DNA of 63,974 bases, filler included, from Collodictyon triciliatum (GCA_043381765.1; 12 parts of 12 records of this genome joined end to end with filler, not necessarily neighbours in it), one strand, 5' to 3'. Positions 13,614 to 63,528 are shown, counted from the whole stretch's first letter. Made by a program: numbers and translations. Notes: generated from the sequence alone by a model not told the origin.

Positions 13614-16081
13614 ATGCCGCCCCGTATTGCATCTCTGGGCATGGCAGCAAATGTTCTTGAAGAAGCAGGGTCAAAGCTCCGCAATGGACAGCTCGTTGCC
13701 TTCCCCACCGAAACGGTCTATGGACTTGGGGCGAATGCCCTGGACGCAAAGGCCGTCGCCGGAATCTTCCAAGCCAAAGGCCGTCCACTCACCGATCCTG
13801 TAATTGTCCACGTTCTTCAGTGGTCCCATGCTCGACGCCTGCTCAAACCTGACCCGAAACGCCACCTCATCGCACAAACCTTGACAGAAAAGTAGCCCGA
13901 TTTCATCTGCACTCATCTAATACCCTGGCTTGACCAATCCTTCTGTTGCCTTCGTTTGATGTCATATTCTCTTTATGGCTCTATCAGTTGAAATACATAT
14001 GAAAATTATCGCTATCGATTAAAAATATACATACCACTTTATTTAATTTTTTCTTTTATAGAAAAAAAAGGTAGCTTAATTAATGTATATTTATGCATTT
14101 TGAAGGTTTTGGCCTGGCCCTCTCACGCTAATTCTCCCGGCATCGACCCAAAACACAAGTGAGACAGAAGCTATACCAGACATTGTCACTGCAGGTACAG
14201 GATTTGTAGGTGTAAGAAGTCCAAATCATCCAATCGCCCGAGCACTGATTGATGCCGCAAAGGTTTCCCACCATCTCTAATCATAATATACTTCCTCCTC
14301 GATAAGCATAAATACTATCCACTTCTTCGAAGAAAAAGATTTGGATGGTCCAACAGCAGCAGATGTCGATTCTCTCACTCTATGAAAGCAAAATAAATGT
14401 AAATAAGCAAAAGAATTAGCTATGAATCCTCTTGTAGATTCCGATAGCAGCGCCATCGGCAAATCGATTTGGACACACAAGCCCAACACTTCCTGAACAC
14501 GTTGTAGCAGATTTCCCTAATGAAGATGTGAGAGATAATTTGAATTTTCACTAAAATAGCATTTCTTGGATATATTTCACAGCTCTTCCTACAATGCACA
14601 AAAAATCATAGCTGGAAATGCTTCTATCACAACATAATTAAATCAATATACGTTTTACAGCCATTCCAAAATTTATGTACATATTTTTCTGTATCTTTCT
14701 GTATCTCTGTTTATTATTCATAGTTGTTTTTTCTGGGTTCGTCTGTATGATGCCAATTTAGTTCTTGGTTATTGATGGAGGCGCTTGCTCAGTTGGGATA
14801 GAATCAACCGTCGCTAAAATAGAAGAGGAGGGCCACGTTACTATCCTTCGTCGAGGAGCAATTACATCGCATGTATTCTTTTCCAGGAGACACCCCCTGC
14901 CTTTTTTTTTTTATTCTCACATATTTAATTTTGTTGCCATCACCATTTTCTCCTATCATTTAAATAAGAGTATCAAGGAATATAAGAGAAGAGAAGGTGA
15001 TGAAATAATCCAACAAATTGACTGATCGCAGGATATGTCGAGCTGTTTGAACTCTGCTGGAATTAATGTCGATGTGTCTATTGTATCCAGAGCCGTTAAG
15101 GAACACATCGCCCAGGCACATCAATTTAATCCCAATATTTTGATTACTGCAAATTTATAGACTAGCATTACTGACATGTTCTAGGGTTAGCATGTCATTA
15201 CAGTCTTATATTTTACTATGCCATTTAACATTATACGCTGTACAGGAAGCTCCTGGCCAGCTACTCACCCACTACGCACCAGACGTCGAAGCCTTTTTAT
15301 TAGATGGAGAAAGTCAAAAAGCTCCCTTACTTTCGGTAATATGGCTGATGAATATGTATATGATAATATACGATCATATTTAATATATACATTATTTATC
15401 AAAATGGAGCAAATGCAAATGTAGATTCAAAAAAAAAAGTGCGACGTTTTCCCTCTGTTAATATTGCCAACTCACGAACCTTTTTCTTTTAATCCACCCC
15501 TTTAACTTTACTTTGACGATGCAATACAAGGAGGGCGCTAGAAAAATTCCTTTTTCAGAAGCCATTCTGATCGACTATGGCGCAAATTATGAACATATGA
15601 AATCCAAATTCAAAGCGTAAGCATTTCCATGTCTCATGCGAGTAAAATTTATGAACTTATAATAAATAAATGAATATATTTTTGGATCAATGCAGATACT
15701 ATGATCTATCCGAGAAAAGAAACGCTGAGCAGGCAGCGCTTAATCTCTTCAAAACATTGCGGTACGATAATCGCTCGATAATGAACTACCATCTTATTCT
15801 GCTTAATTAGGCATTAACCCTTGTTTATATTTCTTTCAAAATGCTATTGTTTAATACACACTCAAATTTCCATCACCAAACTCGCTTCCGAATGACTAAT
15901 TGATTGCTCTAGATGGACCGAGACAATCAGCGGCGCAGTGGCGGTTGTACTTCCAGACTTATCCAAGAATGCTTCCCACGCATCAGACGAAGCTTCACTC
16001 GCAGTGCACGATAGAATATTCCGCGCAGCATCTGGGAAGCAATGCCACTTTGACACAGAATCGGAATCTTTCTTGGCATAA
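13614..16081 (+). CDS. SUA5: Threonylcarbamoyl-AMP synthase Sua5/TsaC2 (YrdC domain + SUA5 C-terminal domain)
   Basis: VAFPTETVYGLGANA, KGRPLTDPVIVH, FWPGPLTLIL, PIAAPSANRFG, GIESTV, APGQLLTHYAP, AVHDRIFRAASG across ~9 exons; stop TAA 16079-16081. Confidence 0.95.
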
Positions 16082-17435: not shown

Positions 17436-20150
17436 ATGAAAAATCCATTCATCGCGACTATCTTGACTTTGGGTATTGATTCATCTACCACGAGCTAATA
17501 ATTAAAAATTCGTGTTTTTTTGCTAAATATTTGCAAATAATTTATTGATGATTATTTTCTTGTAGGGATTTTCTTCCATTTTCAATTGTGTCTTGTTGAG
17601 GGGCAGAATTACCTCATTCGCACAATATTTGGTCATAGTGATAGTGTATCAAGTGTTGCCGTCACTAGAGACAACTCAAAAATTGTTTCTGGAAGTCGTG
17701 ATGCTACAATAAAAATATGGAATACTTCTGATGGAACTCTAATTCGCACATTAATTGGTCATACAAATGTTGTCATCAGTATGGTACTTTCCAGTGATGG
17801 TGAAAAAAATTGTCTCTGGAAGTGAGGATTGCACAGTGAGGCTTTGGAATATATCTGACGGAGCGTTGATTCATACATTAAATGGTCAAGATAATTGGGT
17901 TAGAAGTGTTGCTATGACTTCAGACGGCTCGAAAATAATTTCAGGGAATTGGGATTCTACAATAAAAATTTGGAATAGTTCGAGTGGAACTTTGATTCGC
18001 TCATTTTTTTCCCGCAATGGAATTGTTATTAGCCTTTCTATTTCACCCGACGATTCGAGAATTGTTTCTGGAGGTCAGTTTTCTGATGTCAAAATTTGGA
18101 ATATCAATGATGGAACATTAATTCGAACGTTGATTGGTCATATCTCTCATGTTGAAGGTATTGCTATCACACCTGATGGGTCAAAAATAGTTTCTGGAGG
18201 TTGGGATATTACAGTTAAAGTGTGGAATTTATCTGACGGGGCATTGATTCACATATTAACCGGCCATAGTCAAGCTGTCAATGGAGTTGCTATCACGCCT
18301 GATGGGTCAAAAATAGTTTCGGGAAGTTCTGACAACACTGTTAAAATTTGGAATCTCTCTGATGGAACATTGATAAATACATTTGTGAGTTACGATAGTT
18401 ACTTTAGAAGTGTAACTGTTACACCTGATGGTTCAAACATAATTTCTGGTAGCGGCAATGGTGCTATAAAAATTTGGGGACTTTGCAGTGCCGGCTCCTT
18501 CTACGATTCCACACTTAGCCAGTGTATTACCTGTCCAATGGGGAGTTTTGGCCCTGGAAGAATTTCAGCATCATGTACATCATGTCCAGCTGGAACGTTC
18601 AACAACAAAACTGGTTCATTTGATTCATCATCGTGCATCCCCTGTCCTAATGGAAGCTACAGCTCAGAAAGAAGCTCATCATGCACTGCATGTCTACCAG
18701 GATTCTATCAAAAAGAAGGCATTATAAAGGACATACATTCATGCTATCTTTGCCCGGAAGGCAAATTTACCTCTTATTCAGGCTCATACGGTGTTTCTTC
18801 TTGTGTCGAATGCAAAAATGGAAATGAGAACGATCCTAGTTCATGTTTGCCGAAATCTTGTAAAGGAAATTATTCATGCAATGAGACCATAAACCTGAAT
18901 TCTAGTACAGTGAGCCATAGTACGAATCTTTTCAACCTTTTTCAAAACTCAAAGTCAGAAAATATGGGATATAGGATTTCCATGGTGAATGATTTAGCCT
19001 TGATTTCTGTTCCGTCATGCGTAAATCCACTCGTTTCATGCGATGGAGGGTATGTTTTGGCCTATAAATGGATTGAAAATCAATTTAATTTTACAAAGAA
19101 AATTAGAAATCCTTTCTACAACAGGGATGTGAAATTTGGCTTCGACATGAATATGAAGGGAAATTTTCTGGCTGTGTCAGCACCAGGCTCAATTCGTCGT
19201 GATGATTCGGCGGGGATTGTCGTCATTTATTTTTGGGATGCCTTGCTGAATACATTTAAAAAAATATGCTCCTTAACGTCAGGTAGAACAAAAAATGATG
19301 CGAGTTTCTCAAAATCATTAAGTATCTCAGGTAAGTACGTTGCGGTTGGGTCTCCAAATTATGAGTCATCCAAAGTTCTCAATTCTGGTCGTGTTTACAT
19401 CTTCAATATTGGCGAGGACAATAAATGTAGCGCACTTCCAACCATCATTAACTCTTATTTAAAGATTGAGAATGAGTTTTTTGGTTCTGATGTTTCATTA
19501 GGTAGTGAAAATCTATTAGCAATCTCCAATCGCCCTTCAAATAAGATTTATGAAATCGTCTATGTCGTGCGCAGAGATAATAGAAGGTGGTACATGAGCC
19601 ACACGATAGCTGACAATACAAAGTCTGGATTTGGGTGGAAAGTTCAGCTGATTGGCAGTTCCTTATTCATTTCTGCGGTGAATGATGACACTGCATCACC
19701 AAAATCAGGCTCCATCAGTGTGTATGAGCTCAAGACGCAGAGTCATTTCACCCTAAAGTCTACTATCAGGCCAAAAATAAGTGTTCAAAATGAGCACTTT
19801 GTATTCAGCTTCTACTCTGATGGACAAAAAATAGTAGTAGGATCGAATCCTTGTGACGGAGATTCTGTCTGCGAGTCAAAGAGTAAGACAATTTTTTAAA
19901 TCTAACTACCTAGTAGACTCACCTTTCATTATTATTATTATTATTTTTAGGAAAAGTATACATTTTCGGGCTCATAGCGGGTAATTGGCTTGAAAAAAGA
20001 CAGTTGGCCAGCGGAAGCGCGAATGCATCAGATGGATTTGGATTCGATGCTGCCTTCGTGAATAACACGTACTTGATTTCAGCTCCGTCTGAATCTTCGA
20101 AAGGGATTCGCAAAGGAGTGGTCTATCTTTTCAGAGACCAGCACCACTAA
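17436..20150 (+). CDS. Putative secreted protein: signal peptide + 7 WD40 repeats + Cys-rich (GCC2/GCC3, TNFR-like) repeats + FG-GAP beta-propeller; one frameshift
   Basis: Exon 17436-17472 plus exon from 17566 gives MKNPFIATILTLGIFFHFQLCLVEG-QNY. Seven 42-aa WD repeats (e.g. GHSQAVNGVAITPDGSKIVSGSSDNTVKIWN), with a +1 A in the A7 run at 17803-17809. CxxCPxGxF repeats. FG..AVSAPG / AVGSP..SGRVYIF FG-GAP blades. Intron 19883-19950; stop 20148-20150; no C-terminal TM segment seen. Confidence 0.8.
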
Positions 20151-21169
20151 CTACAAAATAAGTCGACAAGAATTCGACGTGAAGACAATTCAAAGTCTTT
20201 CATTTCATGAATAAAACATAAAAAAAAAAAATAATAACAAGACTTGGACCCGTGATGTTTGTAAAATGTAAGAGTTTCGATCGGTGCAAAACCGAGGCTT
20301 TAGAGAATATGTATGAAAAATATTGTCATTAATGTTTTTTTTTCAATATATCATTCATAAACCTTTATTAACTTGCACAAACTGATAGAAAGTGAGAAAA
20401 ATTCATTAATAGGAAAAAAACCGAGGAAACCACCTTCGCCTCTAGGACAAAAATGAGCGATGAACAAGACAGCAGAAACCCGGATTGTGTGGTTGGAGTT
20501 TTTGTGTTTTGGATGAAAGAAAAAAGGAAAAAGAAAAAAAGGAAAAATAACAAGATAGAAAGGAGAGGAAGTATAATCACACGCGGACTATTCTACCCGA
20601 GGTGAATCAGCTCCAACACGATTTCTGGTTGTATTCGAGACTGACAGAAGAGCGGATAAAGTTGTCGGGTTGATGAAAGTATGCACATGGCAGTTACTTC
20701 GAAAATTGATTCCGATGAGTCCATTCAACCATCTATCTCAAACAAGGTTTACATCCTTTTTCATTCCACAGGATGAGTCTTTTGAGGGGACAATGGGTCA
20801 CTTTCCTTGCGTTTCTTGCTGGGCGACTCAGATATAAAACGATACATAGTTGTTTGTCCGGTATTATCGGAAGTGGCGCTTGACTGTCCCCTGGTTTCGG
20901 AGCCATGCGTAGCCGGCAGTGGACTTTGCTTAACCATAATATGGATACGCATTTGTGGTTTTAGAAACATACGCTCCTGCTTGCTCGGACTGTCTTTGGT
21001 ATGTGAAGTTCCAAGCTTGGTTTCGACTTGTGCTGTTTGCTCTTGCTCCTTGGTTCTGGGTGCGACGGGCTGGGGCAGGGATAAACGGACTACCTTTGGT
21101 GAATACATGTTTTAACACTCGATAAGCACAGCCAACCACAGCCGTCCTGAATAACAAAGGAAAATGGCG

Positions 21170-22100
21170 CTCACGCAGACCAATCTCATACGAAATCTCA
21201 TCGCCATTCTTTTCCGCCTCAAGAACGAACGCTCGTCCAACGGTGCGCAGTCTATGCAGTTCTCGATGGCTATGTCCTACTCCAAATTCTTTCGATACAA
21301 AATATCGCCGCCGACACCCTACAAAAAGTCAAAACATCAACAGTGGGGAGAAACACGGGCATCACCCACACCCCTCTCACCGCGAGCTGGAAACAAGCAC
21401 GAACCCCGCAAGTCCTTCCAAATCACCGCTCTCTAATGCATAATATCACCAATAGGGAGCTATGGATAGGCACACGCGCGGCAAAAGCTGGCAAAGTCTC
21501 CCAACAATGCGCACTTTGCAGCAACAGTGATGAATCCATTGAGCACACATTTGTGCAATGTCCCTTCGCTCAAAACCTGCGCGAAACAGCCGGTGAGACT
21601 CTTCGACTGGCACTCTAGACAGCTGCTGCTGTTTGTCCAATCCAGGCGATGTTTGGTCCTCTGCAACAGCTGCGTCCAGAGGCAAAAAAATTCTGGGCAT
21701 TGACGCGAGGCCATTTGCTATGGACTATGTGGATAGCACGCATATACTCACGCAAAGCAATACTCAACAACCAGCCACCCATTCCTGATAATGGACTGAA
21801 TGACATCATACAAATGTCTTTCCTCAACAGCTTTCTTCGCCACCTGCACGTTATCTACTACTCCGACCCCGTGAGAAGAGACATGTGGAAATAGGCTGAG
21901 AAAGATATTAAACCTCGCCTTGTATCTCTCATGCAAGCACAAGATTCAGGCTACAGGCCAAACCGCAGGATGCAACTCCTGATAACCGACTACTTCTCCG
22001 CCAACCAGCCACCAAGTAGCGTCCATGCAAACGATGGCTAGCGAACCAAAGCCAACATCTTCACCATCCTGCACAAAATCGAAAGGAAGAATAAAAAAAA
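21170..22100 (+). mobile_element. Decayed 3' fragment of an L1/Tx1-type non-LTR retrotransposon (zf-RVT region, 3' end and A tail)
   Basis: LWIGTRAAK..CALCSNSDESIEHTFVQCPFA (CCHC zf-RVT) followed by FWALTRGHLLWTMWIAR. In-frame TAG stops at ~21616 and ~21892. Ends in AATAAAAAAAA at ~22090-22100. Confidence 0.8.
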
Positions 22101-49320: not shown

Positions 49321-52300
49321 ATAAACCTAGTTTGCAAGGACCCGTGGACAAGAAAAGAAGGTATGTTTGGCCTTTCCTGCTTGGGCTGCGAAGTCAGCAG
49401 CAACGATCGCTTTTCCCTCGCATGTGGACATATCTTTTGCGAGGAATGCTGCCAAAGAATACTGTGCGGTTATTCGACCAGCGAGCAGAGGAGTTCACCG
49501 GAGAAGTTTATCCACCCGCACCGTGCCTGTCCAGCCTGCTTTACTCCGATAGAACAGAGCACAAAAACAGTCGCAAACCTGATTAAAGCAGGACAGACCC
49601 ACGGATTCATTCGGACAAAGGCTCCTTTCGACAGCGCCCCGAAGCAGAAGAGATCCGAGGCGGGTCTGTGTGATCACCCGAACGCCCGGTTCATTTTTGT
49701 TCCTGACCACGGATGGGTTTGCAAGCAATGCCACCATAATAGCGAGAAGGCTTCGAGGTATTCAAACATACTGATCTTATTACTTTGCTTTGGTACACAT
49801 AATGCCCATAGAGCATTTCTTTCATCTCTGATGTAAACACATCCTTTTTATTTTCCCTGACCGTATAATCCGTGACGCAGAGCCACTGTTCGCAGTCCTC
49901 CCCGCGAAAATGTACCGGATTTGTCTAATATTGTGGAAAGATTCAATCCGGAATTGTGTTGCCATCATAACAGAGTAATCACAAAGATGTCCATCAATCA
50001 GAGTCCCTATATTCGGTGCTCTTCTTGTGAAGATAGTTCACCCCATAAAGACGATGCGGAATGGTTTGAGGTCCCTTATCAATCTGCCCTACCCAACCCT
50101 CGGTTAAAATCGTTTGAGAAAGAGTTGTCGCAGCGTAAATCTGACATAGATTTTGAGGAAGAAAAGCTCCAAGTTTTGTTTAACGAGGTTCATTAGAATT
50201 ATAAGCATTTCCATATCCATATTTTTTTCATTTATGTAAATAAGATATCCTGATACATATTAGCATTATTTTACTCATGTACATTCGGGACTGTTCTCTC
50301 CTTTCTTTCTTTTTTTTTTTCCCTCTATAATTAGAGCTCTGAAACCCTGGATTGTTTTAGCAAGGAAGTTGCGTGCCTAGAAAAGCCAACAGAAACGCAG
50401 GAACTATTCAAGAATGTAGTTTCTTTTCATATAAAACACATACGAATATTCAAAAAGTATAATTATCCATATTCATTTATATAAACAAAAAAAAACCAGA
50501 TTATTCTCTATGAGAGGGAGCGCCTAGATTTCATTAAATGTGCCTTAAGAGCAAAAGGCCATGAAAAGCATGTGTTGGGAAAGATTAAATACCTAATTCA
50601 AAATGCCCATGAGTTTATGAGGATGAAAAATTTTGTCCGCAGTATGGAATGTATTCACTTTATGAATCACCTAAATGTAAAATCCCAAGCACCGTCCAAT
50701 CCAATCGGACTACTACGATTTCAGCCTTCGGCTCTAAGAAACACATCAACATCAACGCCAACGCCAACGCCAACGCCAACGCCGTCGACATTACCAACCG
50801 AAGAGCAAAATATATCGCAGGAGTCAAAAGCAGAAGAAACCCATCCCATCTTCCTGAGGGCTTCTCACAATGCACATCCGGCTGGTATTGCACTCCATTT
50901 GAAGAAAGATTATTCCATAACTATAAACCCAGAAAAAATAACACCAGTAGCAAACGGCTTTGTATGCTACGTTCCATCCTCTCAAGTTCGCATATTACTT
51001 AATCTCAAATGCATACGCATCTTAGAGCACGAAATTAAGGTACGCTCTGTGCTCACATTTCTATAAGTACGTATGACGTGTCTTTAATCATTTCGTATAT
51101 TCATTTATTTAGAGATGACAATTTGTTTATTCCATTTTTGGTCTATTCCTAGTTTGAGAGATTTGAGCGTAATACTGCATCCTCACCAAACCCAATGCGA
51201 CTTTCCTCCCGTAACGATGGAGAAAAAGATACATCTTTACCACACGTCGTGAATGTCCCGTATGGAAAACCTTCTTCTCCTATGCAGGGTGCATATAATG
51301 AATATATACCAGAGTACGCCCAAAAATCACACATGATATACCCACCTCCTGAAGCTCCAAAAGTTACACCGCCTACCGGTTTCTTGAAAGCTACCAACCA
51401 TACACACATAGACGCAAATCCGCTCCCAACACCAGAAAAAGGAGATATCCCGAAACCAAACGCTCCACACGACCAATTTTTACAAAGTCCAAATGAGCCA
51501 TATTACCAGCACATGCCCGAATCAATTTCCCTTTTTCCAAGGTATATCGATGCTCATGAAGCAGAATTAAGTAATACGCATAAAGTATTAGATGTAGATA
51601 AACCAAGTGAAAAACAAGACCGGGGAAATTCAGAACCACCTCACCCTTGTCCTTATACAAGGTTGGCTGAAGGAGAGGGTGTGTTTTGTTATCCTCCCAT
51701 TGAGGCAAACGTCATACCACCAAATGTGAATCTACATAAACGCGCGGATGTACAAAAAGAAGGTCGCATGGAAACTTACACTGCTCCGTATCATGGTGCC
51801 CAAACTTGTACTGGAAAAGGCACTAATGGTATAATTTCATCACCCAAGGCTTCTGCATCACCCGAACCACCAAAATTACATTCTGTAATACGGAGTCTCT
51901 TTGTTAGTGTTTTCACTAGCCAAGAACAGAATATATTAGAGGGCATAAGAATCCTGAGAGAAAAATTTTCGATAACTTTGGTCGTACAAATACCACTTCT
52001 AAATTCGTTCTACATTCGCTCTGAAGAAACGACAGCAGGCAATCGTTTACCATCAGGCTCCTTTCAAATGGGTGACTATATATACTATGTCTCAGACTCT
52101 AAAAGCATCGAAATCATGATTATGTCGAGTATTGAATCTATCGACTTCAACGGTGCTTTTAATCGTATCTTACAAGATCACAGCGCACGCTACATCCAAC
52201 GCAACAGCACGAATATCATCGAAATACCAGACATAATATCATCAGGAAACCTTTTGTTTTCTAATCCGATCATTTTGGGACATGTCTCGATTAACTGGTG

Positions 52301-54267
52301 TCCTTTTATCCTTTATTTTCAAGGTATTGCTAATGTAGAGTCGTATTACAGTCTCCTTCTTTTTCTTTCGGAAAAGAAAATTAATATATTTAGTGTATCT
52401 ATTGAGACTCCCGAATATTCCACTGATCGACTGGTGAAGCTTACTTTTCCCAGCATCCAAGATGCTCTTGCAGTGATTTCTCTGGGCCGAATTGAGATAA
52501 AGGGAAAACATATTCGCATATCACATAATGGAAGACAATTTTTAGGCGAAGGTTATCCACAAACATCATATGAAATCAATACCCTCCCAGTTTCATCTTT
52601 GTCTTTGATTGCAAGCCATTTAAATCATTTGAATATCACAAGAGAAAACCATTTAAATATTTTCTTTATTTACAGTTGGCAATTATATTGCGAATATATT
52701 ACCTAACATGCATCTGTTTACAATATTTTCTCTTCCAAAAGTGAGCAAAACGAGACCGCAGGGAGGCCCCCAACGGAGTGACCTTGATGCAGCCGAATCA
52801 TACATGGAAGGACATTACACTCCTGTTCCACCGCCACCAACAGTGACATACTTCTCCAAAAGCGACTTCCATCCTAGTGTTTTGAGCAAGTTTGTAAACA
52901 TATGCGACCACGTGCGCAAGTTAGACCACGATGGTAAAATCTGGAGTCCGACAGAGTGGCTTGAGGCCTTTAACGCATATGAAAGCAGACGGAGATACTC
53001 TACAACTGCGTCAAATCCACGTGGAAATCTCGATGAAGTGCGCCCGATGCGAGTGATCGTCATGCTTAACACAATCAAATTGTTTCAAACAGGTTCATAT
53101 AAAAACTCGAAAGGGCTTGTTGTTAGTATTCCACCAGTTGTGAGCAACACATTCTATATAGAAGCTCCAGAGATTCCTTTTGAACTTAATAGTCATGAGC
53201 ATGTCATTCAAGTCTACAATATGGATTGCTTAGAAGCAGCAAAAATGATCATAACCGATTCCAGTAATGTCCGAAATGTGGCAGTATTGAATATGGCATC
53301 CAAGTTTACGCCAGGAGGGGGATACAAAAAAGGAGACGCAGCACAAGAAGAAAATATTTTCCGACGTACAAACTACTGCACTCTACTGGATAGTGCTTGG
53401 AATAGTGAAAATCCTCATATGTCATCACAGGGATATCCAATGGAGTCGTTTGGAGGTGCATACACTAAAAAAGTGACCGTATTCCGGGGATTAGAATCGG
53501 AAGGATATCCTCTGCTTGATGATGCCTTCCAGTGCGACTTTGTGGCTGTGTATGCAATTAAAAGCGAGCGCAATCGAACATTTGGGAAGAGTGAGTTTCA
53601 CGAAACTCAAAAGAAGATAGAGTCCATCTTTAGGATATGCATCGCCAATGGGTGTGATGCTCTTGTGCTTGGTGCACTTGGATGTGGAGCCTACAACAAT
53701 CCCCCGAAAGTAATTGCTGAGGCCTTCTTGTCGATGATACATAATTACGGACATTTCTTCAAAAAGGTTTGGTCATTTGTTTCGTTTGTATTTTTCTTTT
53801 CATTCGAGTATATTATAAGGAGCGAGAGGAGGAGGGGGGAAGAAACATAATATAACTGGGTCTCCAAAATGTTGCTTGGTATCAATTATATAGCCTAATG
53901 CCAAGAGGTATCGAATTGCATTTTCATCTAGCTGATTATAGCCCTCCAACTCTTGCTAACTGTTAATCGCTTACTCGCATGTAACAGATTATCTTTGCCA
54001 TAAGAGATGACCACAATTCTGTCAACAACTTCTCGATATTCCATGGTCTTCTTGATGGGGTGGAAGTAAAGTCTGGGTTGTCGCCAAATGATACATTTGC
54101 CCCGGTATGCCGCGATGGGGGTATGTGCAGAGATTTTGGAGGCCACAGGATGCAGTTTCGACATCCGCAACGCTGCAGTATTCCCAGGTGCTCTAACCGA
54201 GAAGAAGCTCATCTGTTCTACTCTTGTCATAAGTAGCCATAGTGACATCCGCATTGCTGGTCCATAA
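49321..54267 (+). CDS. TRIM-like RING/B-box/coiled-coil protein fused to a microbial-type PARG macrodomain (DUF2263/TIGR02452-like); 5' truncated
   Basis: C3HC4 RING CLGC..ACGHIFCEEC..CPAC; two B-box-like Cys/His clusters; VAVLNMASKFTPGGGYKKGDAAQEENIFRRT and LVLGALGCGAYNNPP. Phase-compatible introns 49758-49880, 50188-50334, 50416-50499, 51040-51152, 52552-52741 and 53767-53988 join the ORFs into one frame; stop 54265-54267. Confidence 0.8.
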
Positions 54268-54690
54268 AGCAAGCAACCAACCAACTGACCAACTGACCAA
54301 CCAACCAACTGGCCAATTCTCGCGTGGGGATCCACGACAAACACCACAACAAAATAAAAAGGAAACAAAAGGATAGACCATGTCTCGATGTAAATTGTAC
54401 GGTACTACTCCCTAATCGATAAGGCATGCCTTTTTGGGAGGGAAGTGATAACGTGTGGTCACAACCCAATCAGCGTTGTGCACTTTTTTTCCGGGCGCGG
54501 CTGCTGCGGATGCGTCATTCTCGGCCCAAAAAGATCACGGGTGAGCAGAAAGTCCACAAGGAAAGAGGAACGCGCAAGCAGCGGGGAGTGTCCTACAACG
54601 CAATCTTATTTGGTGGAAACTTTGAGGCAGTCATAGAAGAGGAAAAAAAGGGAGGGAGCGAAAATCAAGCTAAAACTGGTCTAGATTACA

Positions 54691-55206: not shown

Positions 55207-57765
55207 CAATTACGATGGTCATCATCCCCGCCTAAGTCGACCCATTCATCATCTGAATCCACATCAGCCCGACTGACCTTGTCTCGGCGTCCTTTTGACG
55301 GGAATCTGGCATCATGCCAAGACCGCGAATGCATAGTTGATTTGAGTGATGCTGTTTCCTTCGTCTGACATGAAATCAGGTGAGTCAGGGCGACCCCAAC
55401 TCGAACCTCCATGCTTTTTAACTCATTCTGGGCACGAAATGATTTGCATTTTTGTGTTAATAAGTGTGATGTAACTAGTACGTCCCATTGACAAAAATAT
55501 GAAACTAATATCTGTAATTTACTTGTAAATGTAATAGGGCAAGTTTTCATTATAAAACATAGTAAGTACTTTAATTTGAGACATAGAAGACTTGATTTTG
55601 ACGACGGGTGTTGCGTCAGATATGGATGTACTTAGCTCGTCCATAATCCTCTTCAAATGAAAAAAAATGCAGAAAAAGGGAGGTTGATACGCACTATCAC
55701 AAATAGAATATTTTCATTGAGAAAAATCGGTATTGCCATATTATCCTCATACTTTGGTCCTGTCTAATTCGTCATTTATCTGGTTCAGCTCTTGGGAAAA
55801 TTGCACAAGCTTTTCACTACTTCGCCCGTAAGTTTCCTGCTTCTTTGACATTTCTTCGTGGACTGCTCGGTATTCGGCTGTCTGCGTAAGGTAAAGTATT
55901 TAATGTCCATACCAAGGTAGAACGTATGAACCAAACTGAAAAAGTGAAAATAGATATGTGTGCTAAATTAAGTTGCGTGTTGTGGTTGCTACAATGGGAA
56001 TTAATGCCGACAGGAATGATTCGTTTTCTTACCAGCTTTTCCATCTGAGAGTTGATTGTTTTCTCTCGCAGAACAATTTTTTCCGTCGTCATTTTTACAT
56101 CACTGCTAACTTTACCAAGCGTATCCATCGTATCCCCTGTGTCTGAGCCCATACCCTACCGTAAATCAAATATACCGAACGCTAAATTAGCAAGACACAG
56201 AGATAGGGAGATAATGCCTGTATTTTTTTATATAAAAAAAAAGTCAGATGAGATACATCACAAATGTCGCGCATTGTATCGAAATGGGACCGCCAGCTAC
56301 GGTCGTCCATCTTTACGATTGTCTGAGAAAAAATCAAGTTAGTGCATAAATGAACGAGATACTCTGCTTAAAAAAAACGAAGATTTTGGTGCCTGATCAC
56401 ATGTACAACCCATGCTTTAGTAAGTATTTGTAAGACTATAAAGTCATCAACTCTTCATCGAGTTCATCTTCGAACCTGTAACAAGGGACGCACTCTTTCC
56501 AACTCGATTTTCCATGCATTAGGGTCGACAGCTGACTCACTTATTCTATAATTTTCCCGAACAAGTCAAAATGAGACTTGGTCACAGGGAATCAAATGCC
56601 AAAATGATATAAAAATTGTGACATGGGCATGAAGTGAAAAAAAACGAAGAAAAAACCAGAGGCAACAAAAAAAAAAAAAATTAGAAATTTCATTACTGCG
56701 CTGTCTTTGATTCATTGTGCTTCTTATACTCTGAAAATTCGTCATCCTCGTGGTCATTTACCATGTGTTCCTCATGAATCTCGTCATCTCGTCCTTGTTC
56801 TGATGATTCAACTTCCATGTCGCCAGGGTACCTTACCAATCCATGAAGACAATAAAATTATACGTTAGACAATCGCCAAAAAAAGAAAAAAGAAAAAAAA
56901 AAGACAAAAAATGGCAGTGTCAAAGTGCCTTTCGTGTCATTGCTTCATTATTCCATACCAAAATACGCAAACCCAGCCCAGGTTATAATATAGAAAAAAT
57001 TGGTTTTAAAAAAGAAACCTATCAGGTATAGCCGATGGTGTCATTATCTTAACAGTCTGAGACGCATTCAATGAGAGCTGGTACAGAATTTGCATAACGT
57101 GCTCACCGTACCCTTAGAATATCGGGTAAGTAATAGATCGAATTGGGAATGTAATATACTTATGTAAGATGGTTTTAACAGAAAAATACTGACCTTGCTT
57201 AAGCTTCCCAGAAACAATATCAATACCAAGGTTTAGTTTCTTAAGTTCTGTCGCTGCATAACAATTAAAAAAAAGTAATTAATGTATTACGTAGAATCCG
57301 ATTGATATTCAGCTTGTTGCCCGAAAGTAAAGCTTTATGAATCTGATGATAGAAAGCTTGCCTAGGGTTGAGACAGTGATACTTGGGTCATCGTACTCTT
57401 TGGGGTATGTCACTGACGCTCCGCACAGACTCATCAACCAGCAGACAAGAGAGGAAAAGTAATAAAACTGTGTTTATAGGTTTTTGTTTTCCTGAATAAT
57501 CCAGCTGCATTTTTAACAAATAAATGTCATGTTTCTTATCGACAGACGCTTGATGAATAATTACCTGTCGATATGGCTCCGTTGCCACCCCCAAGAAATA
57601 GTGCTTGTCAATTATTGGAAGTTTTCTGTGATTGATGATATTTCAAGGTGAAATGCTGATAGATGCCTAATCAGTTGCGATGTCATAAATTTCTTGTCCA
57701 TTATGTATGGTATACGTACTTGTCTACACAGAATTTGGACTCATAATGAAGTAATTTCAATATAT
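55206..57765 (-). CDS. IFT57: Intraflagellar transport protein 57 (start codon not located)
   Basis: ILKLLHYESKF, HYF, FYYFSSLVCWL..PKEYDDPS, KLKQ|GYGEHV, DDRSWRSHFDTM, TEKIVLREKTINSQME, SISDATPVVKIK, ELKSMEVRVGV match the IFT57 motif order. Confidence 0.88.
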
Positions 57766-60869: not shown

Positions 60870-63528
60870 ATGTCCTCCAGCTCATCTTCTGATGGTGACT
60901 CTCGCACGCCCTCGCCGACGGAACCGTCTTCGTCCCATGGAAAGCCGACCAAAACCGAGGTTCAGGCGGAAAAAAAGAAATGGAAAATGATTCGAGAACA
61001 AAAGGAGGACAAGAAGCAGTTTCGAAAAGAACGCCTTGAGGTCGTCGCTTCCGGCGTTGTGGACGAGTTTAGCTGGAATCCTTCTATGAACCCAGAGGCA
61101 TCTGGAGGTCTTCGCAACTATCTCTTGCACTTCTGCCCCAAGGAGGTGATACCAAGATACGGAGGGCTTGTGATACCTTTCATTCACCGACTCAGCCAAC
61201 TGCAGAGCTATCTTCCGTTTGACCCCAACACCATCGTGCTGAATCCTGGGGAGACAATAGACATGAAAAGAGGAGATGTCTCTATTCTCTTGGCTGCTGG
61301 TTTGATGCTAGAGCTAGACAGAAACTACTTCAAGTTCAGTCGGTTCTTGAGCGCTTTGGGGGAGAGAGTCGGAAGCCAGGTTTTCTATATCATTTGCTAT
61401 ACTCTTCTCTTTCTTTTCCTCCCTCTTTGATTCTCGCTTGATCTGTTACACCTATATTGCAATACCACGTATTTTAATCATTATGTGGATATCTAGCACT
61501 ATTAGTTTCGCTAATATCGCAAACTCGCACAATACCACCACAAATCCTTCGCCAAAATAACATATAATTATCCCCACAGGGAGGGAAAATGCGATGCCTG
61601 TTAAATTACTTCGACATTGTCAGGGATCGATATATGAAGAAAATAAGGGAGCATAATGAGGAAATTCGCTATGAAACTCTGCAGGATGCTATGCATGGTA
61701 GTTCATTATTTTTTCTGCATCCTTAGTCTCAAATATTTCTTAAGATTTTTTTTTTTAAAAAAAAACCGACGTCTGAAACGTCTGCACAGGGAACATTCTA
61801 TTCCAATCTAGGGTTTTAAACCCAGACATAAACTCCACGCAATGGGCTTCTAGCACAAAGAGCCTTTGTCAAGTAGTGGTTGATGATTTGGGTACAATCG
61901 AAGATGATGGGAAGGTTTTTTTTTAAAATTTTTTTTTTATGTAAAACACTCGTTTATTAATTCATTCATTTACTTGCTCATTCATTTGCTCAGAAATCTA
62001 TTCAAGCTGACTTTGCAAACAAAAGAATTGGAGGGGGAGTCTTGAGATTGGGATGTGTCCAAGTGCGAACTTAAATACATCACCATTTATGTATTAAAAG
62101 ATGATCACCTTAGAGCACCATTTCAACGCATTTTAATCACTCTACTTATTGATAATTTTTTTGATTTCTTGCATTATTTTCTACGCGTGATTGCAGGAGG
62201 AAATACGATTCGGTATATATAAGTTTCTTAGAAAGTTATTTCTCCAAACTTTTGATATACACAACAATATGATTCAATTTAGATATGAAAATTGACGAGT
62301 CATTACGTGTAACAAGATTTATTGAAAACTGTTGTACTTATTAAAATAAGTTCGTCAAATTATTCTTGTTTTTTTTTTTTTTGAATGAGATTAGTTATCA
62401 ATCCCGAGTGCCTTGTTTCACTACTGCTGAAGAGCGAACCAATGACCCCACTGGAATCTATTATGATTTTAGGAACTGAAAGATTCTCGAATTATCGAGG
62501 ATATGGCGGGTAATGGTGAAAAATTCACCATAAACACAGTTTTACAAGACCAAACATTGATTTCACATACCCCATCTTGCCTAGATAAAAAAATAAATTG
62601 AAAAAAAATCATATATTAAAATAGGTCATTTCGATTTTCAGAGCCCCATACCGATGATGTGGAAGTTATTGAATACAACGGTAGCCGTTACATTAATACA
62701 AATATTGTTGCGATAGATGCAATACCAATGAAGAGCATTCCTCGCCAATTTGACGAAGAAAACTTTCGCAGAGAGTTACACAAGGTTTATACTTGTTGAA
62801 ATTCAGCTTCTGGTCGATATTCAAACTTCATGAATCCCTTATCTGTTTTCTTCAGTACATTACAGTCTCTTTTTTCTATTATTTTCTTATTTATTCTGCC
62901 TTTCAATTTCTTATTTCCTTACTTCTTAATGTCATTACTTAAATTTTTATACCAGTCACTTAGTGGCTTCACGATCAACGAATGGGAGAGACAGAGTGAA
63001 GTTATGCCCGTAGCAACAGGCAATTGGGGATGTGGAGCTTTCGGCGGGTGCATTCAGATTAAGTCATTGGTGCAGTGGATTTCATGCTCTATAGCTGGTT
63101 TGCTTTCTTTCATACATAAAATGATATTAGCATATGTGCGCAATAAAGCATATAATATTTTCTTCCTGTATTCGATTAGAAGCCACAAAGTATATATAAT
63201 TAATCATTTAGATAAAAAAATCATAAGAACAAAATAAATTAGTGATGAAAATCACACTTTAATCAATCAAAGTAAAAAGGAATGATGATGTAGTAAATAA
63301 TAATCATTTCTCGCTAAGTCAGCATCATGTAAAATAGATCGGCGATTGATGCAGTACTATACTTTCAAAGACAAGAACGCTGCAGGGACAAGGGAAGTTA
63401 TGCAAGCTATTTACGAGGCAGGATGGAGCGTCGGACTTTTGTATGCCAACATAATGTCTTATAGTGCCGACACTTGGGAAGAATGTAAGCTGTATGAATT
63501 CTTGCTCAGGAAAGCAGGAAAAATATAA
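60870..63528 (+). CDS. PARG: Canonical (eukaryotic-type) poly(ADP-ribose) glycohydrolase, compact form
   Basis: KMRCLLNYF, GTIEDDG, QADFANKRIGGGVLRLGCVQ|EEIRF|VINPECLVS, GTERFSNYRGYG, IVAIDA, RELHK, VATGNWGCGAFGG, KSLVQWISCS, YYTF. Confidence 0.93.

What the first reader, a model, noticed from the sequence alone, without database searches (positions are those of the whole stretch)
49321..54267. TRIM-like E3 ligase fused to a bacterial-type PARG macrodomain
Seen: five separate ORF-track entries join through six phase-compatible GT-AG introns into one protein: C3HC4 RING, two B-box-like clusters (CDHP..CKQCHH; CCHH..CSSC..H), coiled coil, Pro-rich linker, an RRM-like region (VKLTFPSIQDALAVI..IEIKGKHIRI), then a macrodomain with intact GGG-x7-QEE and GALGCGAY loops. 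Established: this signature defines microbial-type PARG (DUF2263), usually a small standalone protein. In animals, ADP-ribose/ubiquitin crosstalk uses separate or different modules (PARP9-DTX3L, RNF146). Inference: a single-chain reader/eraser of ADP-ribosylation coupled to ubiquitination, plausibly in antiviral/antitoxin defence or DNA repair. I do not recognise this architecture from any described protein.
Basis: partly seen in the sequence, partly recalled or inferred. Interest (0 to 1): 0.8.

Follow-up and report, generated by a model that had tools for sequence, protein, structure and literature searches.

The report
RING finger fused to bacterial-type PARG
A spliced, expressed gene of an unidentified microbial eukaryote joins a RING-type zinc finger, a bacterial-type enzyme that trims poly(ADP-ribose) and two poly(ADP-ribose)-binding-like zinc fingers in one protein, a combination I found in no other sequence or paper searched.

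Summary
The gene is real. It has seven exons (49363-54236, + strand) that encode 1331 aa. All six GT-AG introns appear as joints in RNA contigs, including 52551/52742, which links the N-terminal half to the PARG exon. A poly(A) tail starts at 54394.

- **PARG domain:** secure and motif-intact. PF10021 scores 82 bits, TIGR02452 scores 100 bits, and the GGG-x7-QEE and GALGCGAYNNPP loops align to T. curvata PARG.
- **RING:** has all eight C3HC4 ligands (96 of 200,000 shuffles do as well) but scores below Pfam's cut-off.
- **B-boxes, coiled coil, RRM:** not confirmed, so "TRIM-like" describes the layout only and is not a membership.
two C-terminal CCHH fingers. They are homologous to the fingers that follow PARG in rotifer, fungal and Diphylleia proteins. 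A profile of them finds human APLF's PBZ domains as the two best of three PDB hits (E 0.02).

The PARG domain sits in a eukaryotic multidomain clade, not among the standalone sequences. No RING was found in 254 fetched homologues, and the N-terminus has no relatives among 1.84 billion proteins.

Most likely this is a poly(ADP-ribose)-directed eraser that may also be an E3. It is a new variant of a known theme (CHFR, RNF146), and its function is untested.

The parts
49363..49757 (+). Exon 1 (residues 1-131 plus 2 bases of codon 132). ATG at 49363.
   Evidence: Model. The intron 1 joint 49757/49881 is seen in X1. An X2 contig covers 49339-49574 with 0 differences.
49378..49539 (+). RING-type C3HC4 pattern, residues 6-59: C-x2-C-x11-C-x-H-x2-C-x2-C-x26-C-x2-C.
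   Evidence: The pattern matches in this protein, in 96 of 200,000 composition-preserving shuffles, and in 1 of 322 window ORFs, which is this one. Pfam zf-C3HC4_3 gives E 1.9e-4 at 21.6 bits, below the 27-bit cut-off. The best PDB sequence hits are RING E3s (RNF4, BRE1, TRIM69, TRIM21) at E 0.03-3.
49669..49737 (+). First Cys/His cluster, residues 103-125 (C-x-H ... H-x3-C-x2-C-H-H).
   Evidence: Present in the sequence. No Pfam B-box match at E <= 10. The single-sequence AlphaFold model gives a beta hairpin at 110-120, the only part above pLDDT 60.
49881..50187 (+). Exon 2 (residues 132-234).
   Evidence: X1 record 2 covers it. The intron 2 joint is seen in X5 record 20.
49957..50046 (+). 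Second Cys/His cluster, residues 158-187 (CCHH-x16-C-x2-C-x5-H).
   Evidence: Present in the sequence. No Pfam match at E <= 10. ESM Atlas ranks 2-3 are clusters in which 56-62% of members carry zf-B_box, at score 0.77; this is a lead only.
50095..50676 (+). Candidate helical or coiled-coil stretch, residues about 204-320, spanning exons 2-4 with introns 2 and 3 inside.
   Evidence: All ten best 28-residue windows of a crude heptad score in the whole protein lie at residues 204-251. The best score is 9.6, below the 95% level of shuffled proteins (10.1).
50335..50415 (+). Exon 3 (residues 235-261).
   Evidence: Joints 50187/50335 (X5) and 50415/50500 (X1).
50500..51039 (+). Exon 4 (residues 262-441).
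   Evidence: X1 records 2 and 3. The joint 51039/51153 is seen in X1.
51153..52551 (+). Exon 5 (residues 442-907 plus 1 base). Its first half is a Pro/Ser/Thr-rich linker.
   Evidence: Open frame. X1 contigs lie along it, and the joint 52551/52742 is seen in X1. No Pfam family reaches E 0.1 (best 0.17, Ge1_WD40).
51894..52223 (+). First predicted beta-alpha-beta ... beta-alpha-beta module (residues about 689-798).
   Evidence: Single-sequence AlphaFold model with pLDDT mostly under 60.
52299..52547 (+). Second ferredoxin-like (RRM-like) module, residues about 824-906.
   Evidence: The model gives beta-alpha-beta-beta-alpha-beta-beta at pLDDT about 70. VIA-align gives only generic ferredoxin-like matches at Z 5-6. 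There is no RRM match in Pfam at E <= 10 or in PDB sequences. ESM Atlas look-alikes include PARP14-type RRM clusters at 0.80-0.85; this is a lead only. The last 35 residues align to Diphylleia P0121.
52742..53766 (+). Exon 6 (residues 908-1249): N-terminal helical extension and most of the bacterial-type PARG macrodomain.
   Evidence: PF10021 gives E 5.6e-23 at 82.4 bits (cut-off 23.5). TIGR02452 gives 99.9 bits (cut-off 50). T. curvata PARG 3SIG gives E 3e-9.
53314..53352 (+). PARG catalytic loop GGG-x7-QEE.
   Evidence: It aligns column for column with the GGG...QEE of T. curvata PARG. The chain 3SIJ differs from 3SIG by an Ala opposite the second Glu. The loop is invariant in alignment A1.
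53671..53706 (+). Diphosphate-binding loop GALGCGAYNNPP.
   Evidence: Aligned to GAWGCGVFGNDP of 3SIG. Invariant in A1.
53988..54236 (+). Exon 7 (residues 1250-1331 plus stop TAG 54234-54236): last strand and helix of the macrodomain, then two zinc fingers.
   Evidence: The intron 6 joint 53766/53988 is seen in X5. P0001 aligns across it. X1, X2, X3 and X5 contigs are unbroken through the exon.
54108..54164 (+). CCHH finger 1 (residues 1290-1308: C-x5-C-x5-H-x5-H), PBZ-like.
   Evidence: The 52-aa tail alone matches the post-PARG fingers of rotifer proteins at E 3e-5 in a set of 122 proteins. The profile of this finger region (A2) hits APLF's tandem PBZ at E 0.02, the two best of only 3 PDB hits at E <= 10. 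It fits the published PBZ consensus partly: CxxGxxC and HxxxFxH are present, the first aromatic is absent and the loop is 2 residues shorter (consensus from PMC4030884).
54174..54230 (+). CCHH finger 2 (residues 1312-1330: C-x4-C-x6-H-x5-H).
   Evidence: It aligns with the second conserved finger of the family; the first Cys and both His are invariant, and the window's second Cys lies 5 columns upstream of the family's. There is no Pfam PF10283 match.
54237..54394 (+). 3' UTR up to the poly(A) addition site.
   Evidence: X1 record 7 ends at 54394, followed by 21 A that are not in the genome.

Best explanation
This is one expressed gene of a microbial eukaryote that encodes a 1331-aa multidomain protein. 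In order, the protein has:
1. a RING-type zinc finger;
2. two further small Cys/His clusters and a probably helical stretch;
3. a disordered linker of about 350 aa;
4. two ferredoxin-like (RRM-like) modules;
5. a catalytically intact bacterial-type poly(ADP-ribose) glycohydrolase macrodomain;
6. two C-terminal CCHH fingers of the PBZ kind.

WHAT IS SHOWN. The fusion is real, the PARG domain belongs to its family with its catalytic motifs intact, and the terminal fingers are homologous to those of other eukaryotic bacterial-type PARG proteins.

WHAT IS INFERRED. The fingers and the macrodomain bring the protein to poly(ADP-ribose) chains. ADP-ribosylated nucleic-acid ends, possibly reached through the RRM-like modules, are a second candidate target. 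The PARG domain removes terminal ADP-ribose units as an exo-glycohydrolase. The RING recruits a ubiquitin-charged E2, so that the modified protein, the PARP that made the chain, or the enzyme itself is ubiquitinated. That would be poly(ADP-ribose)-directed ubiquitination as in CHFR or RNF146, but with the eraser built in.
For: GENE AND TRANSCRIPT. All 6 introns are seen as GT..AG joints in RNA contigs, and there is a poly(A) end at 54394. Homology runs across two junctions.

PARG.
- PF10021 scores 82.4 bits against a cut-off of 23.5.
- TIGR02452 scores 99.9 bits against a cut-off of 50.
- The GGG-x7-QEE and diphosphate loops align to T. curvata PARG.

FINGERS. The tail matches rotifer post-PARG fingers at E 3e-5. 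The finger profile finds APLF PBZ as its best PDB hits at E 0.02. PBZ is a specific poly(ADP-ribose) binder and occurs in the RING E3 CHFR (PMC4030884, passages read).

RING. All eight ligands are in canonical spacing, which arises in 96 of 200,000 shuffles. The best Pfam and PDB matches are all RING E3s, although weak.

SUBSTRATE RANGE. Bacterial-type PARGs are obligate exo-glycohydrolases (PMC4030884). They also remove 2'-OH RNA ADP-ribose and ADP-ribose on 5'-phosphate ends (PMC11833690, passages read).

FAMILY CONTEXT. The window's PARG sits in a clade of 5 rows (SH-aLRT 97) with Diphylleia sequences, inside a set of 12 rows (99) with Jimgerdemannia and rotifer multidomain proteins. Several of these carry PBZ or RRM_1.
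Against: RING.
- It is below Pfam's gathering score (21.6 against 27 bits).
- The single-sequence AlphaFold model of exon 1 is uninformative (pLDDT 40.5).
- From recalled knowledge of RING E3s, not tested here: the residue after the last Cys is Phe rather than the usual "linchpin" Arg/Lys, and the first loop reads C-L-G-C rather than carrying the usual Ile/Val. This weakens the case for E2~Ub activation.

NO CONSERVATION OF THE FUSION. The closest homologue, Diphylleia P0121 (1011 aa), has no RING, and the N-terminus has no detectable relatives. Selection therefore cannot be shown to maintain the fusion.

FINGERS. They fit the PBZ consensus only partly, and Pfam PF10283 does not match.

VARIATION. 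Between the X1 contigs and the window there are 8 synonymous and 11 non-synonymous differences. That is at most mild constraint, and the contigs are of low depth.

TRANSCRIPTS. X1 retains intron 6, which would truncate the macrodomain. No single RNA molecule spanning RING to PARG was seen.
Confidence: 0.55

Rival explanations
1. It is a regulated PARG paralogue without ligase activity. The N-terminal zinc clusters and helices serve only as a structural or oligomerising scaffold, or as a localisation module. The protein is simply a second, targeted poly(ADP-ribose) exo-glycohydrolase beside the canonical PARG encoded 6.6 kb downstream.
For: - The RING is below Pfam's cut-off and lacks two residues that I recall as typical of active RINGs.
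- The clusters do not match the B-box model.
- The N-terminus has no relatives.
- The nearest homologue lacks a RING.
- A canonical PARG gene lies at about 60870-63240.
Against: All eight RING ligands are kept in canonical spacing, including a GH-x-FC-x2-C core and a CP-x-C end. This would be unexpected for a decayed domain. Every best match of exon 1 in the PDB is an active RING E3.
Confidence: 0.25
2. It is a nucleic-acid ADP-ribose repair or defence enzyme. The RRM-like modules bind RNA (or DNA ends), and the PARG domain removes ADP-ribose placed on 2'-OH or 5'-phosphate groups by toxins or viral enzymes. The RING adds a signalling or turnover function.
For: - Bacterial-type PARGs reverse RhsP2-type 2'-OH RNA ADP-ribosylation and 5'-phosphate ADP-ribosylation, and protect cells from the toxin (PMC11833690, passages read).
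- Two ferredoxin-like modules lie directly before the PARG domain.
- A fungal relative carries a Pfam-verified RRM_1 with PARG.
- ESM look-alikes include PARP14-type RRMs (lead only).
- The divergently transcribed neighbour is a DUF4062 / NACHT-like / TPR gene.
Against: - There is no RRM match in Pfam or in PDB sequences.
- The fold match is only generic ferredoxin-like at Z 5-6 on a low-confidence model.
- There is no PADLOC match.
- PBZ-type fingers point to poly(ADP-ribose) rather than RNA.
- Gene neighbourhood carries little weight in eukaryotes.
Confidence: 0.15
3. The fusion is not a normal product. Two neighbouring genes are joined by read-through or by an assembly error, and the functional proteins are separate.
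For: No single contig spans the whole mRNA. X1 leaves about 52960-53364 uncovered and retains intron 6. The runs are shown as Logan contigs, and X1 is labelled RNA only by a guess.
Against: - The exon 5 to exon 6 joint has GT..AG ends and keeps the frame.
- The Diphylleia homologue aligns across exactly this junction, from 35 residues upstream.
- The frame is open through all seven exons.
- X1 contigs carry spliced joints and a poly(A) tail, so they are RNA-derived.
Confidence: 0.05

Closest known systems
Eukaryotic multidomain bacterial-type PARG proteins (bdelloid rotifer proteins of 1300-1950 aa with PBZ fingers; Jimgerdemannia flammicorona RRM_1 + PARG; Diphylleia rotans P0121 and P0002)
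   Same: - The same PARG clade in the quick tree.
- The same N-terminal helical extension of the PARG domain.
- The same tandem CCHH fingers directly after the macrodomain.
- A pre-PARG alpha/beta module that aligns with Diphylleia P0121.
- PBZ repeats in the Adineta vaga PARG are in print (PMC4245714, passages read).
   Different: None of them has a RING pattern (0 of 254) or a RING Pfam family (0 of the 240 listed). The window protein has only two fingers, whereas the rotifer proteins have long arrays of them.
CHFR (FHA + RING + PBZ E3 ligase)
   Same: A RING and a PBZ-type poly(ADP-ribose)-binding finger in one chain. [quoted passage not shown]
   Different: CHFR has no hydrolase domain and has an FHA domain. 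No sequence similarity to CHFR was detected here beyond the motif classes; CHFR did not appear.
RNF146/Iduna (RING + WWE) and DTX3L-PARP9 (RING-DTC E3 paired with a macrodomain protein)
   Same: Both couple an ADP-ribose reader to a RING E3. DTX3L-PARP9 pairs a RING with macrodomains. The domain content of these proteins is recalled; RNF146 was seen only as a term count and in reference titles of PMC4030884.
   Different: Neither contains a PARG-type eraser.
Thermomonospora curvata and Deinococcus radiodurans PARG (standalone bacterial-type PARG)
   Same: The catalytic loop, the diphosphate loop and the overall domain (E 3e-9 and 2e-5).
   Different: Those are single-domain proteins of 250-280 aa. 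Here the domain is the sixth of seven exons of a 1331-aa protein.
TRIM/RBCC E3 ligases
   Same: The order is the same: RING at the extreme N-terminus, then two small Cys/His clusters, then a stretch with the best heptad pattern in the protein.
   Different: The B-box model does not match, the coiled coil is not significant, and the best RING matches are not specifically TRIMs (RNF4 and BRE1 rank first).

Membership tests
Bacterial (microbial)-type PARG, Pfam PF10021 / NCBIfam TIGR02452 | Family HMM above the curated cut-off | tested here: met
   PF10021 gives 82.4 bits against 23.5. TIGR02452 gives 99.9 bits against 50, covering profile positions 2-240 of 266 within exon 6.
Bacterial (microbial)-type PARG, Pfam PF10021 / NCBIfam TIGR02452 | PARG signature GGG-X6-8-QEE with both glutamates (signature as quoted in PMC4245714) | tested here: met
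   PGGGYKKGDAAQEE lies at 53311-53352 and aligns to the same loop of 3SIG.
Bacterial (microbial)-type PARG, Pfam PF10021 / NCBIfam TIGR02452 | Diphosphate-binding Gly-rich loop of the macrodomain | tested here: met
   GALGCGAYNNPP aligns to GAWGCGVFGNDP of 3SIG.
Bacterial (microbial)-type PARG, Pfam PF10021 / NCBIfam TIGR02452 | Hydrolysis of the ribose-ribose bond of poly(ADP-ribose) | not testable with these tools
   Needs an enzyme assay.
RING-type E3 ligase | Eight zinc ligands in cross-brace spacing C-x2-C-x9-39-C-x1-3-H-x2-3-C/H-x2-C-x4-48-C-x2-C (consensus recalled) | tested here: met
   Residues 6-59 fit. 96 of 200,000 shuffles and 1 of 322 window ORFs (this one) do as well.
RING-type E3 ligase | Family HMM above the curated cut-off | tested here: not met
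   The best is zf-C3HC4_3 at 21.6 bits against 27. Four other RING models score lower.
RING-type E3 ligase | E2 binding and ubiquitin transfer | not testable with these tools
   The single-sequence model of exon 1 is unusable (pLDDT 40.5).
TRIM / RBCC | At least one B-box zinc finger after the RING | tested here: not met
   PF00643 gives no match at E <= 10 for either cluster. The only hint is ESM Atlas clusters at score 0.77.
TRIM / RBCC | Coiled coil directly after the B-box | tested here: inconclusive
   The best heptad windows lie in the right place (204-251) but score 9.6 against the 95% null of 10.1. The score is a home-made one.
[quoted passage not shown] | Consensus [K/R]xxCx[F/Y]GxxCxbbxxxxHxxx[F/Y]xH (PMC4030884) | tested here: inconclusive
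   Finger 1 has CxxGxxC and HxxxFxH but lacks the basic residue and the first aromatic, and its C-to-H loop is 2 residues shorter. Finger 2 fits less well.
[quoted passage not shown] | Family HMM or profile similarity to solved PBZ domains | tested here: inconclusive
   PF10283 gives no match. The profile of the finger region hits APLF PBZ1 and PBZ2 at E 0.02 and 18.4 bits, the two best of 3 hits in the PDB. An HMM built from the rotifer far-C-terminal fingers scores the tail at 9.6 bits, and 1 of 500 shuffles scores higher.
RRM | Family HMM, or a beta-alpha-beta-beta-alpha-beta fold with RNP motifs | tested here: inconclusive
   There is no Pfam RRM match at E <= 10 and no PDB sequence match. 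The model shows the right order of strands and helices at pLDDT about 70 for residues 824-906. VIA-align gives Z 5-6 to generic ferredoxin-like folds.

The most novel reading that the evidence does not exclude
A protist has independently built a TRIM-like RING E3 that carries its own ADP-ribose eraser and PBZ readers. It acts as an innate-immune effector: it recognises ADP-ribose marks placed on host RNA or proteins by toxins or giant-virus enzymes, removes them, and ubiquitinates the marked complex. It sits head-to-head with an NLR-like (DUF4062 / NACHT-like / TPR) gene with which it may act. This would be a single-chain "erase-and-tag" module with no described counterpart, and an RBCC-type layout outside animals.
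Probability: 0.1. Interest if true: 0.8.

Novelty: new variant of a known kind. Interest (0 to 1): 0.5.

Why it matters
Crosstalk between ADP-ribosylation and ubiquitination is known from readers joined to E3s (CHFR, RNF146, DTX3L-PARP9). A chain that joins a RING to a PARG-type eraser and PBZ-type readers is not in the sequences or papers I could search.

If the RING is active, this protein would be a compact natural tool for asking how removal of poly(ADP-ribose) and ubiquitination of the same target are ordered.

It also adds to the little-studied eukaryotic branch of bacterial-type PARGs. Those are mostly large multidomain proteins, not the small standalone enzymes known from bacteria.

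The limits are real. So far it is a single gene in one unidentified organism, no orthologue shares the fusion, and E3 activity is doubtful on sequence grounds.

Tried and rejected
- **AlphaFold on exon 1** (single sequence): mean pLDDT 40.5 and no usable RING model.
- **AlphaFold on residues 666-907**: mean pLDDT 50.7. Foldseek against the PDB found nothing at E <= 0.001. VIA-align wide gave only generic ferredoxin-like folds at Z <= 5.9.
- **ESM Atlas**: PARP14-type RRM / NID clusters at 0.80-0.87 for the middle region and zf-B_box clusters at 0.77 for exon 2. All are under 0.9, so they are leads only.
- **phmmer of exon 1 against 1.84 billion representatives**: 3 hits at E <= 0.001, all multi-stretch. 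Of the two scanned with Pfam, one had no family and one had a dockerin. No orthologue was found.
- **Word-based search with exon 5, longer proteins**: none at E <= 0.01.
- **Metagenome scan with the PARG alignment**: 80 loci kept, at most 40% identity except for short segments. None has similarity to the first 905 residues.
- **Other libraries**: PADLOC gave no match. NCBIfam gave no match for exons 1, 5 and 7. PDB phmmer of the RRM-like stretch and of exon 7 gave no relevant hits.
- **No genome is held** for the window, so paralogues could not be sought. tblastn of the protein against the window found no second copy.
- **Earlier findings of this scan**: nothing found by place, sequence or words.
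- **An extra intron inside exon 5** (52258-52431 looks intron-like in composition): rejected. No joint is reported, the candidate splice pairs break the frame, and the stretch forms the first half of the predicted RRM-like module.
- **RNA cover**: X1 leaves 53128-53301 without cover, and X2 and X3 cover only a few short pieces. I draw nothing from these gaps.
- **Literature**: "microbial-type PARG" gave 0 papers. PARG + B-box + RING + macrodomain gave 0 papers. "bacterial-type PARG" + RING gave 6 papers, and in the two whose RING passages I read (PMC4245714; PMC4030884, passages on other terms) none describes such a fusion. One search failed on a disallowed character. Supplements were not read.

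Full report
WHAT IS THERE

The window is eukaryotic DNA. It has 26-45% G+C in 2-kb windows, microsatellites, masked N runs and spliced genes. On the + strand I built a seven-exon model:
- exon 1: 49363-49757
- exon 2: 49881-50187
- exon 3: 50335-50415
- exon 4: 50500-51039
- exon 5: 51153-52551
- exon 6: 52742-53766
- exon 7: 53988-54236

Every intron is GT..AG, and the phases fit. The product is 1331 aa with a single stop, TAG at 54234-54236.

IS IT TRANSCRIBED AS ONE GENE?

One search for public runs found a holder of 52% of the sampled words (X1), related runs of the same study (X4, X5), and two freshwater metatranscriptome runs with small shares (X2, X3). I laid X1, X2, X3 and X5 on 49300-54500.

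- X1 contigs skip introns 1, 3, 4 and 5. This includes the decisive junction 52551/52742 (depth 4.4, 51 letters on the shorter side).
- X1 record 2 also carries exon 3 between exons 2 and 4.
- X5 contigs skip introns 2 and 6.
- X1 record 7 runs unspliced from 53365 to 54394 and ends in 21 A that are not in the genome. The poly(A) site is therefore at 54394, and that contig retains intron 6.
- No insertions or deletions were reported.
- X2 and X3 hold a few fragments with 0-2 differences.

There are limits. All of these are assembled contigs, none spans the whole mRNA, and X1 leaves about 52960-53364 uncovered.

Independent support comes from homology. The Diphylleia rotans protein P0121 aligns without a break from 35 residues before the exon 5/6 junction, through exon 6, and across the exon 6/7 junction (E 1e-87, 42% identity).

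Between the X1 contigs and the window there are 19 coding differences, 8 synonymous and 11 non-synonymous, plus 3 in intron 6. That shows at most mild constraint, and it rests on low-depth contigs.

THE DOMAINS, FROM SECURE TO INSECURE

1. PARG macrodomain. This is secure.
- Exon 6 matches Pfam PF10021 (PARG_cat_microb) at E 5.6e-23 and 82.4 bits, against a cut-off of 23.5.
- It matches NCBIfam TIGR02452 at 99.9 bits, against a cut-off of 50.
- Against solved structures it matches T. curvata PARG (3SIG, E 3e-9) and D. radiodurans PARG (E 2e-5).
- GGG-x7-QEE and the Gly-rich diphosphate loop align column for column with 3SIG.

2. C-terminal zinc fingers.
- After the last macrodomain strand, exon 7 encodes two CCHH fingers (residues 1290-1308 and 1312-1330).
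- The 52-residue tail alone matches the fingers that follow the PARG domain in rotifer proteins, at E 3e-5 in a set of 122 proteins.
- The same tandem fingers are present in Jimgerdemannia P0004 and Diphylleia P0002.
- A profile of the finger region (the window plus nine rotifer-type sequences, A2) gives only three PDB hits at E <= 10. The best two are human APLF's tandem PBZ domains, at E 0.02.
- Pfam's PBZ model itself does not match.
- Finger 1 fits the published PBZ consensus only in part (consensus from PMC4030884).
- An HMM built from the rotifer far-C-terminal fingers scores the tail at 9.6 bits, and 1 of 500 shuffles scores higher.
- I call the fingers PBZ-like.

3. RING.
- Residues 6-59 carry all eight ligands in canonical C3HC4 spacing.
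- The pattern arises in 96 of 200,000 shuffles of the same 131 residues. Among 322 window ORFs only this one has it.
- Five Pfam RING models match, but all below their cut-offs. The best is 21.6 bits against 27.
- The best PDB sequence matches are RNF4, BRE1, TRIM69 and TRIM21, at E 0.03-3.
- The single-sequence AlphaFold model is useless.
- From recalled knowledge, two residues typical of active RINGs are absent: an Ile/Val in the first loop and a basic "linchpin" after the last Cys.

4. The two further Cys/His clusters are present, but Pfam's B-box model does not match them at E <= 10.

5. Coiled coil. A crude heptad score puts all ten of its best windows at residues 204-251, right after the second cluster. 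The best score does not exceed the 95% level of shuffled proteins.

6. RRM-like region.
- A single-sequence model (mean pLDDT 50.7) shows two beta-alpha-beta-beta-alpha-beta modules.
- Fold searches give only generic ferredoxin-like matches.
- No RRM model matches.

Between the helical stretch and these modules lies a linker of about 350 residues, rich in Pro, Ser and Thr.

RELATIVES AND NOVELTY

Among longer proteins, the best PARG-domain matches are:
- two Diphylleia rotans transcripts (P0001/P0121 at 45% identity, P0002 at 38%; species names);
- Jimgerdemannia flammicorona proteins, one of which carries a Pfam-verified RRM_1;
- many bdelloid rotifer proteins of 1300-1950 aa, several with PBZ domains at the far C-terminus.

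Among proteins of similar length, two 326-aa metagenomic proteins (P0126, P0127; 43-45% identity) come first. Both end a few residues after the exact position of the window's intron 6 donor. They look like exons of eukaryotic genes read into an intron.

A quick maximum-likelihood tree was built from 68 rows: the window plus the best 70 domain matches, with duplicates removed. The careful search did not finish, and the root is at the midpoint only.
- The window joins P0126 and P0127 (SH-aLRT 89).
- That group lies inside a set of 5 rows with the Diphylleia sequences (97).
- That set lies inside a set of 12 rows with Jimgerdemannia and the rotifers (99).
- These are apart from 56 unlabelled, mostly short sequences.

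So the domain belongs to a eukaryotic multidomain branch, and a recent bacterial transfer is not indicated.

I found the RING part nowhere else:
- None of the 120 + 120 listed homologues carries a RING or B-box Pfam family.
- None of the 254 fetched proteins matches the RING pattern.
- Exon 1 has no meaningful hit among 1.84 billion representatives.
- Exon 5 has no hit among longer proteins.
- None of the 80 metagenome loci resembles the first 905 residues.

In print:
- Perina et al. 2014 (PMC4245714, passages read) describe bacterial-type PARGs in all eukaryotic supergroups except plants, and PBZ repeats in the Adineta vaga enzyme. I saw no RING fusion in the passages read.
- My searches for PARG + B-box + RING + macrodomain, and for "microbial-type PARG", returned no papers.

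HOW IT PROBABLY WORKS

Shown: a single chain carries an intact PARG-type catalytic centre flanked by PBZ-like fingers, and has a RING pattern at the far end.

Established elsewhere:
- Bacterial-type PARGs are obligate exo-glycohydrolases of poly(ADP-ribose) (PMC4030884).
- They also remove ADP-ribose from the 2'-OH of RNA and from 5'-phosphate ends (PMC11833690).
- PBZ fingers bind poly(ADP-ribose) specifically, and the RING E3 CHFR uses one (PMC4030884).

Inferred: the protein is drawn to ADP-ribose polymers (or to modified nucleic acids, via the RRM-like modules), trims them, and through the RING ubiquitinates the marked protein or itself.

My rough odds are:
- 0.9 that the fusion is real;
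- 0.75 that the hydrolase is active;
- 0.45 that the RING is an active E3.

The main rival reading is a targeted PARG paralogue whose N-terminus is only a scaffold.

CONTEXT

- A canonical-type PARG gene lies about 6.6 kb downstream on the same strand. It gives a PF05028 match at 62800-63234 and contains a GGG signature fragment and a GNWGCGAFGG loop. The organism therefore has both PARG types side by side.
- The divergently transcribed upstream neighbour has DUF4062, weak NACHT / NPHP3_N matches and TPR repeats.

VERDICT

- "Fusion of a RING with a bacterial-type PARG" stands and appears to be new.
- "TRIM-like", "RRM" and the animal frame of reference are not established.
- The premise that this PARG type is usually small and standalone does not hold for its eukaryotic branch.

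Noticed in passing
window 60870-63240 (+), e.g. 61961-62074 and 62800-63234: A canonical eukaryotic-type PARG gene lies about 6.6 kb downstream on the same strand. PF05028 PARG_cat_C matches at E 2.2e-13. ORF fragments carry a GGG signature piece and a GNWGCGAFGG loop. Both PARG types are therefore encoded within 15 kb.
   Followed up: partly
window about 44080-48751 (-): A head-to-head neighbour that starts with MG... at 48751. It has DUF4062 (25 bits, just above the cut-off), weak NACHT / NPHP3_N / AAA_16 matches and TPR_12 / TPR_10 repeats. This is an NLR-like STAND gene sharing a roughly 600-bp intergenic region (with an N run and a hexanucleotide microsatellite) with the RING-PARG gene.
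   Followed up: partly
window 53767-53987: Intron 6 is retained in the X1 contig that carries the poly(A) tail, but it is spliced out in X5. The retained form would end the protein 27 residues into the intron and remove the last macrodomain strand and both fingers.
   Followed up: no
P0126 and P0127 (326 aa, metagenomic): The two closest standalone PARG hits end six residues after the exact position of the window's intron 6 donor. They are probably exons of eukaryotic genes read into a conserved intron, so they may hide larger architectures.
   Followed up: partly
window 17541-19896 (+): A long ORF that combines WD40 repeats, Ephrin_rec_like (GCC2/GCC3-type) Cys-rich repeats and an FG-GAP repeat.
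   Followed up: no
window 21151-21615 (+): A match to zf-RVT (the zinc-binding region of reverse transcriptases) at E 5e-10, probably a retroelement remnant.
   Followed up: no
window 55820-56155 (-), 13527-13892 (+), 29740-30759 (-), 7337-7669 (+): Fragments of other genes: IFT57 (weak, 21.7 bits), Sua5/YrdC, a Cyt-b5 domain protein and ankyrin repeats. The IFT57 hint suggests a flagellated organism.
   Followed up: no
rotifer proteins P0024, P0025, P0028, P0031, P0033, P0035: These bacterial-type PARG proteins carry arrays of six to eleven CCHH fingers. They start directly after the macrodomain and resume at the far C-terminus. Pfam's best-scoring PBZ stretches in the two proteins scanned (P0033, P0058) lie at the far C-terminus.
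   Followed up: partly
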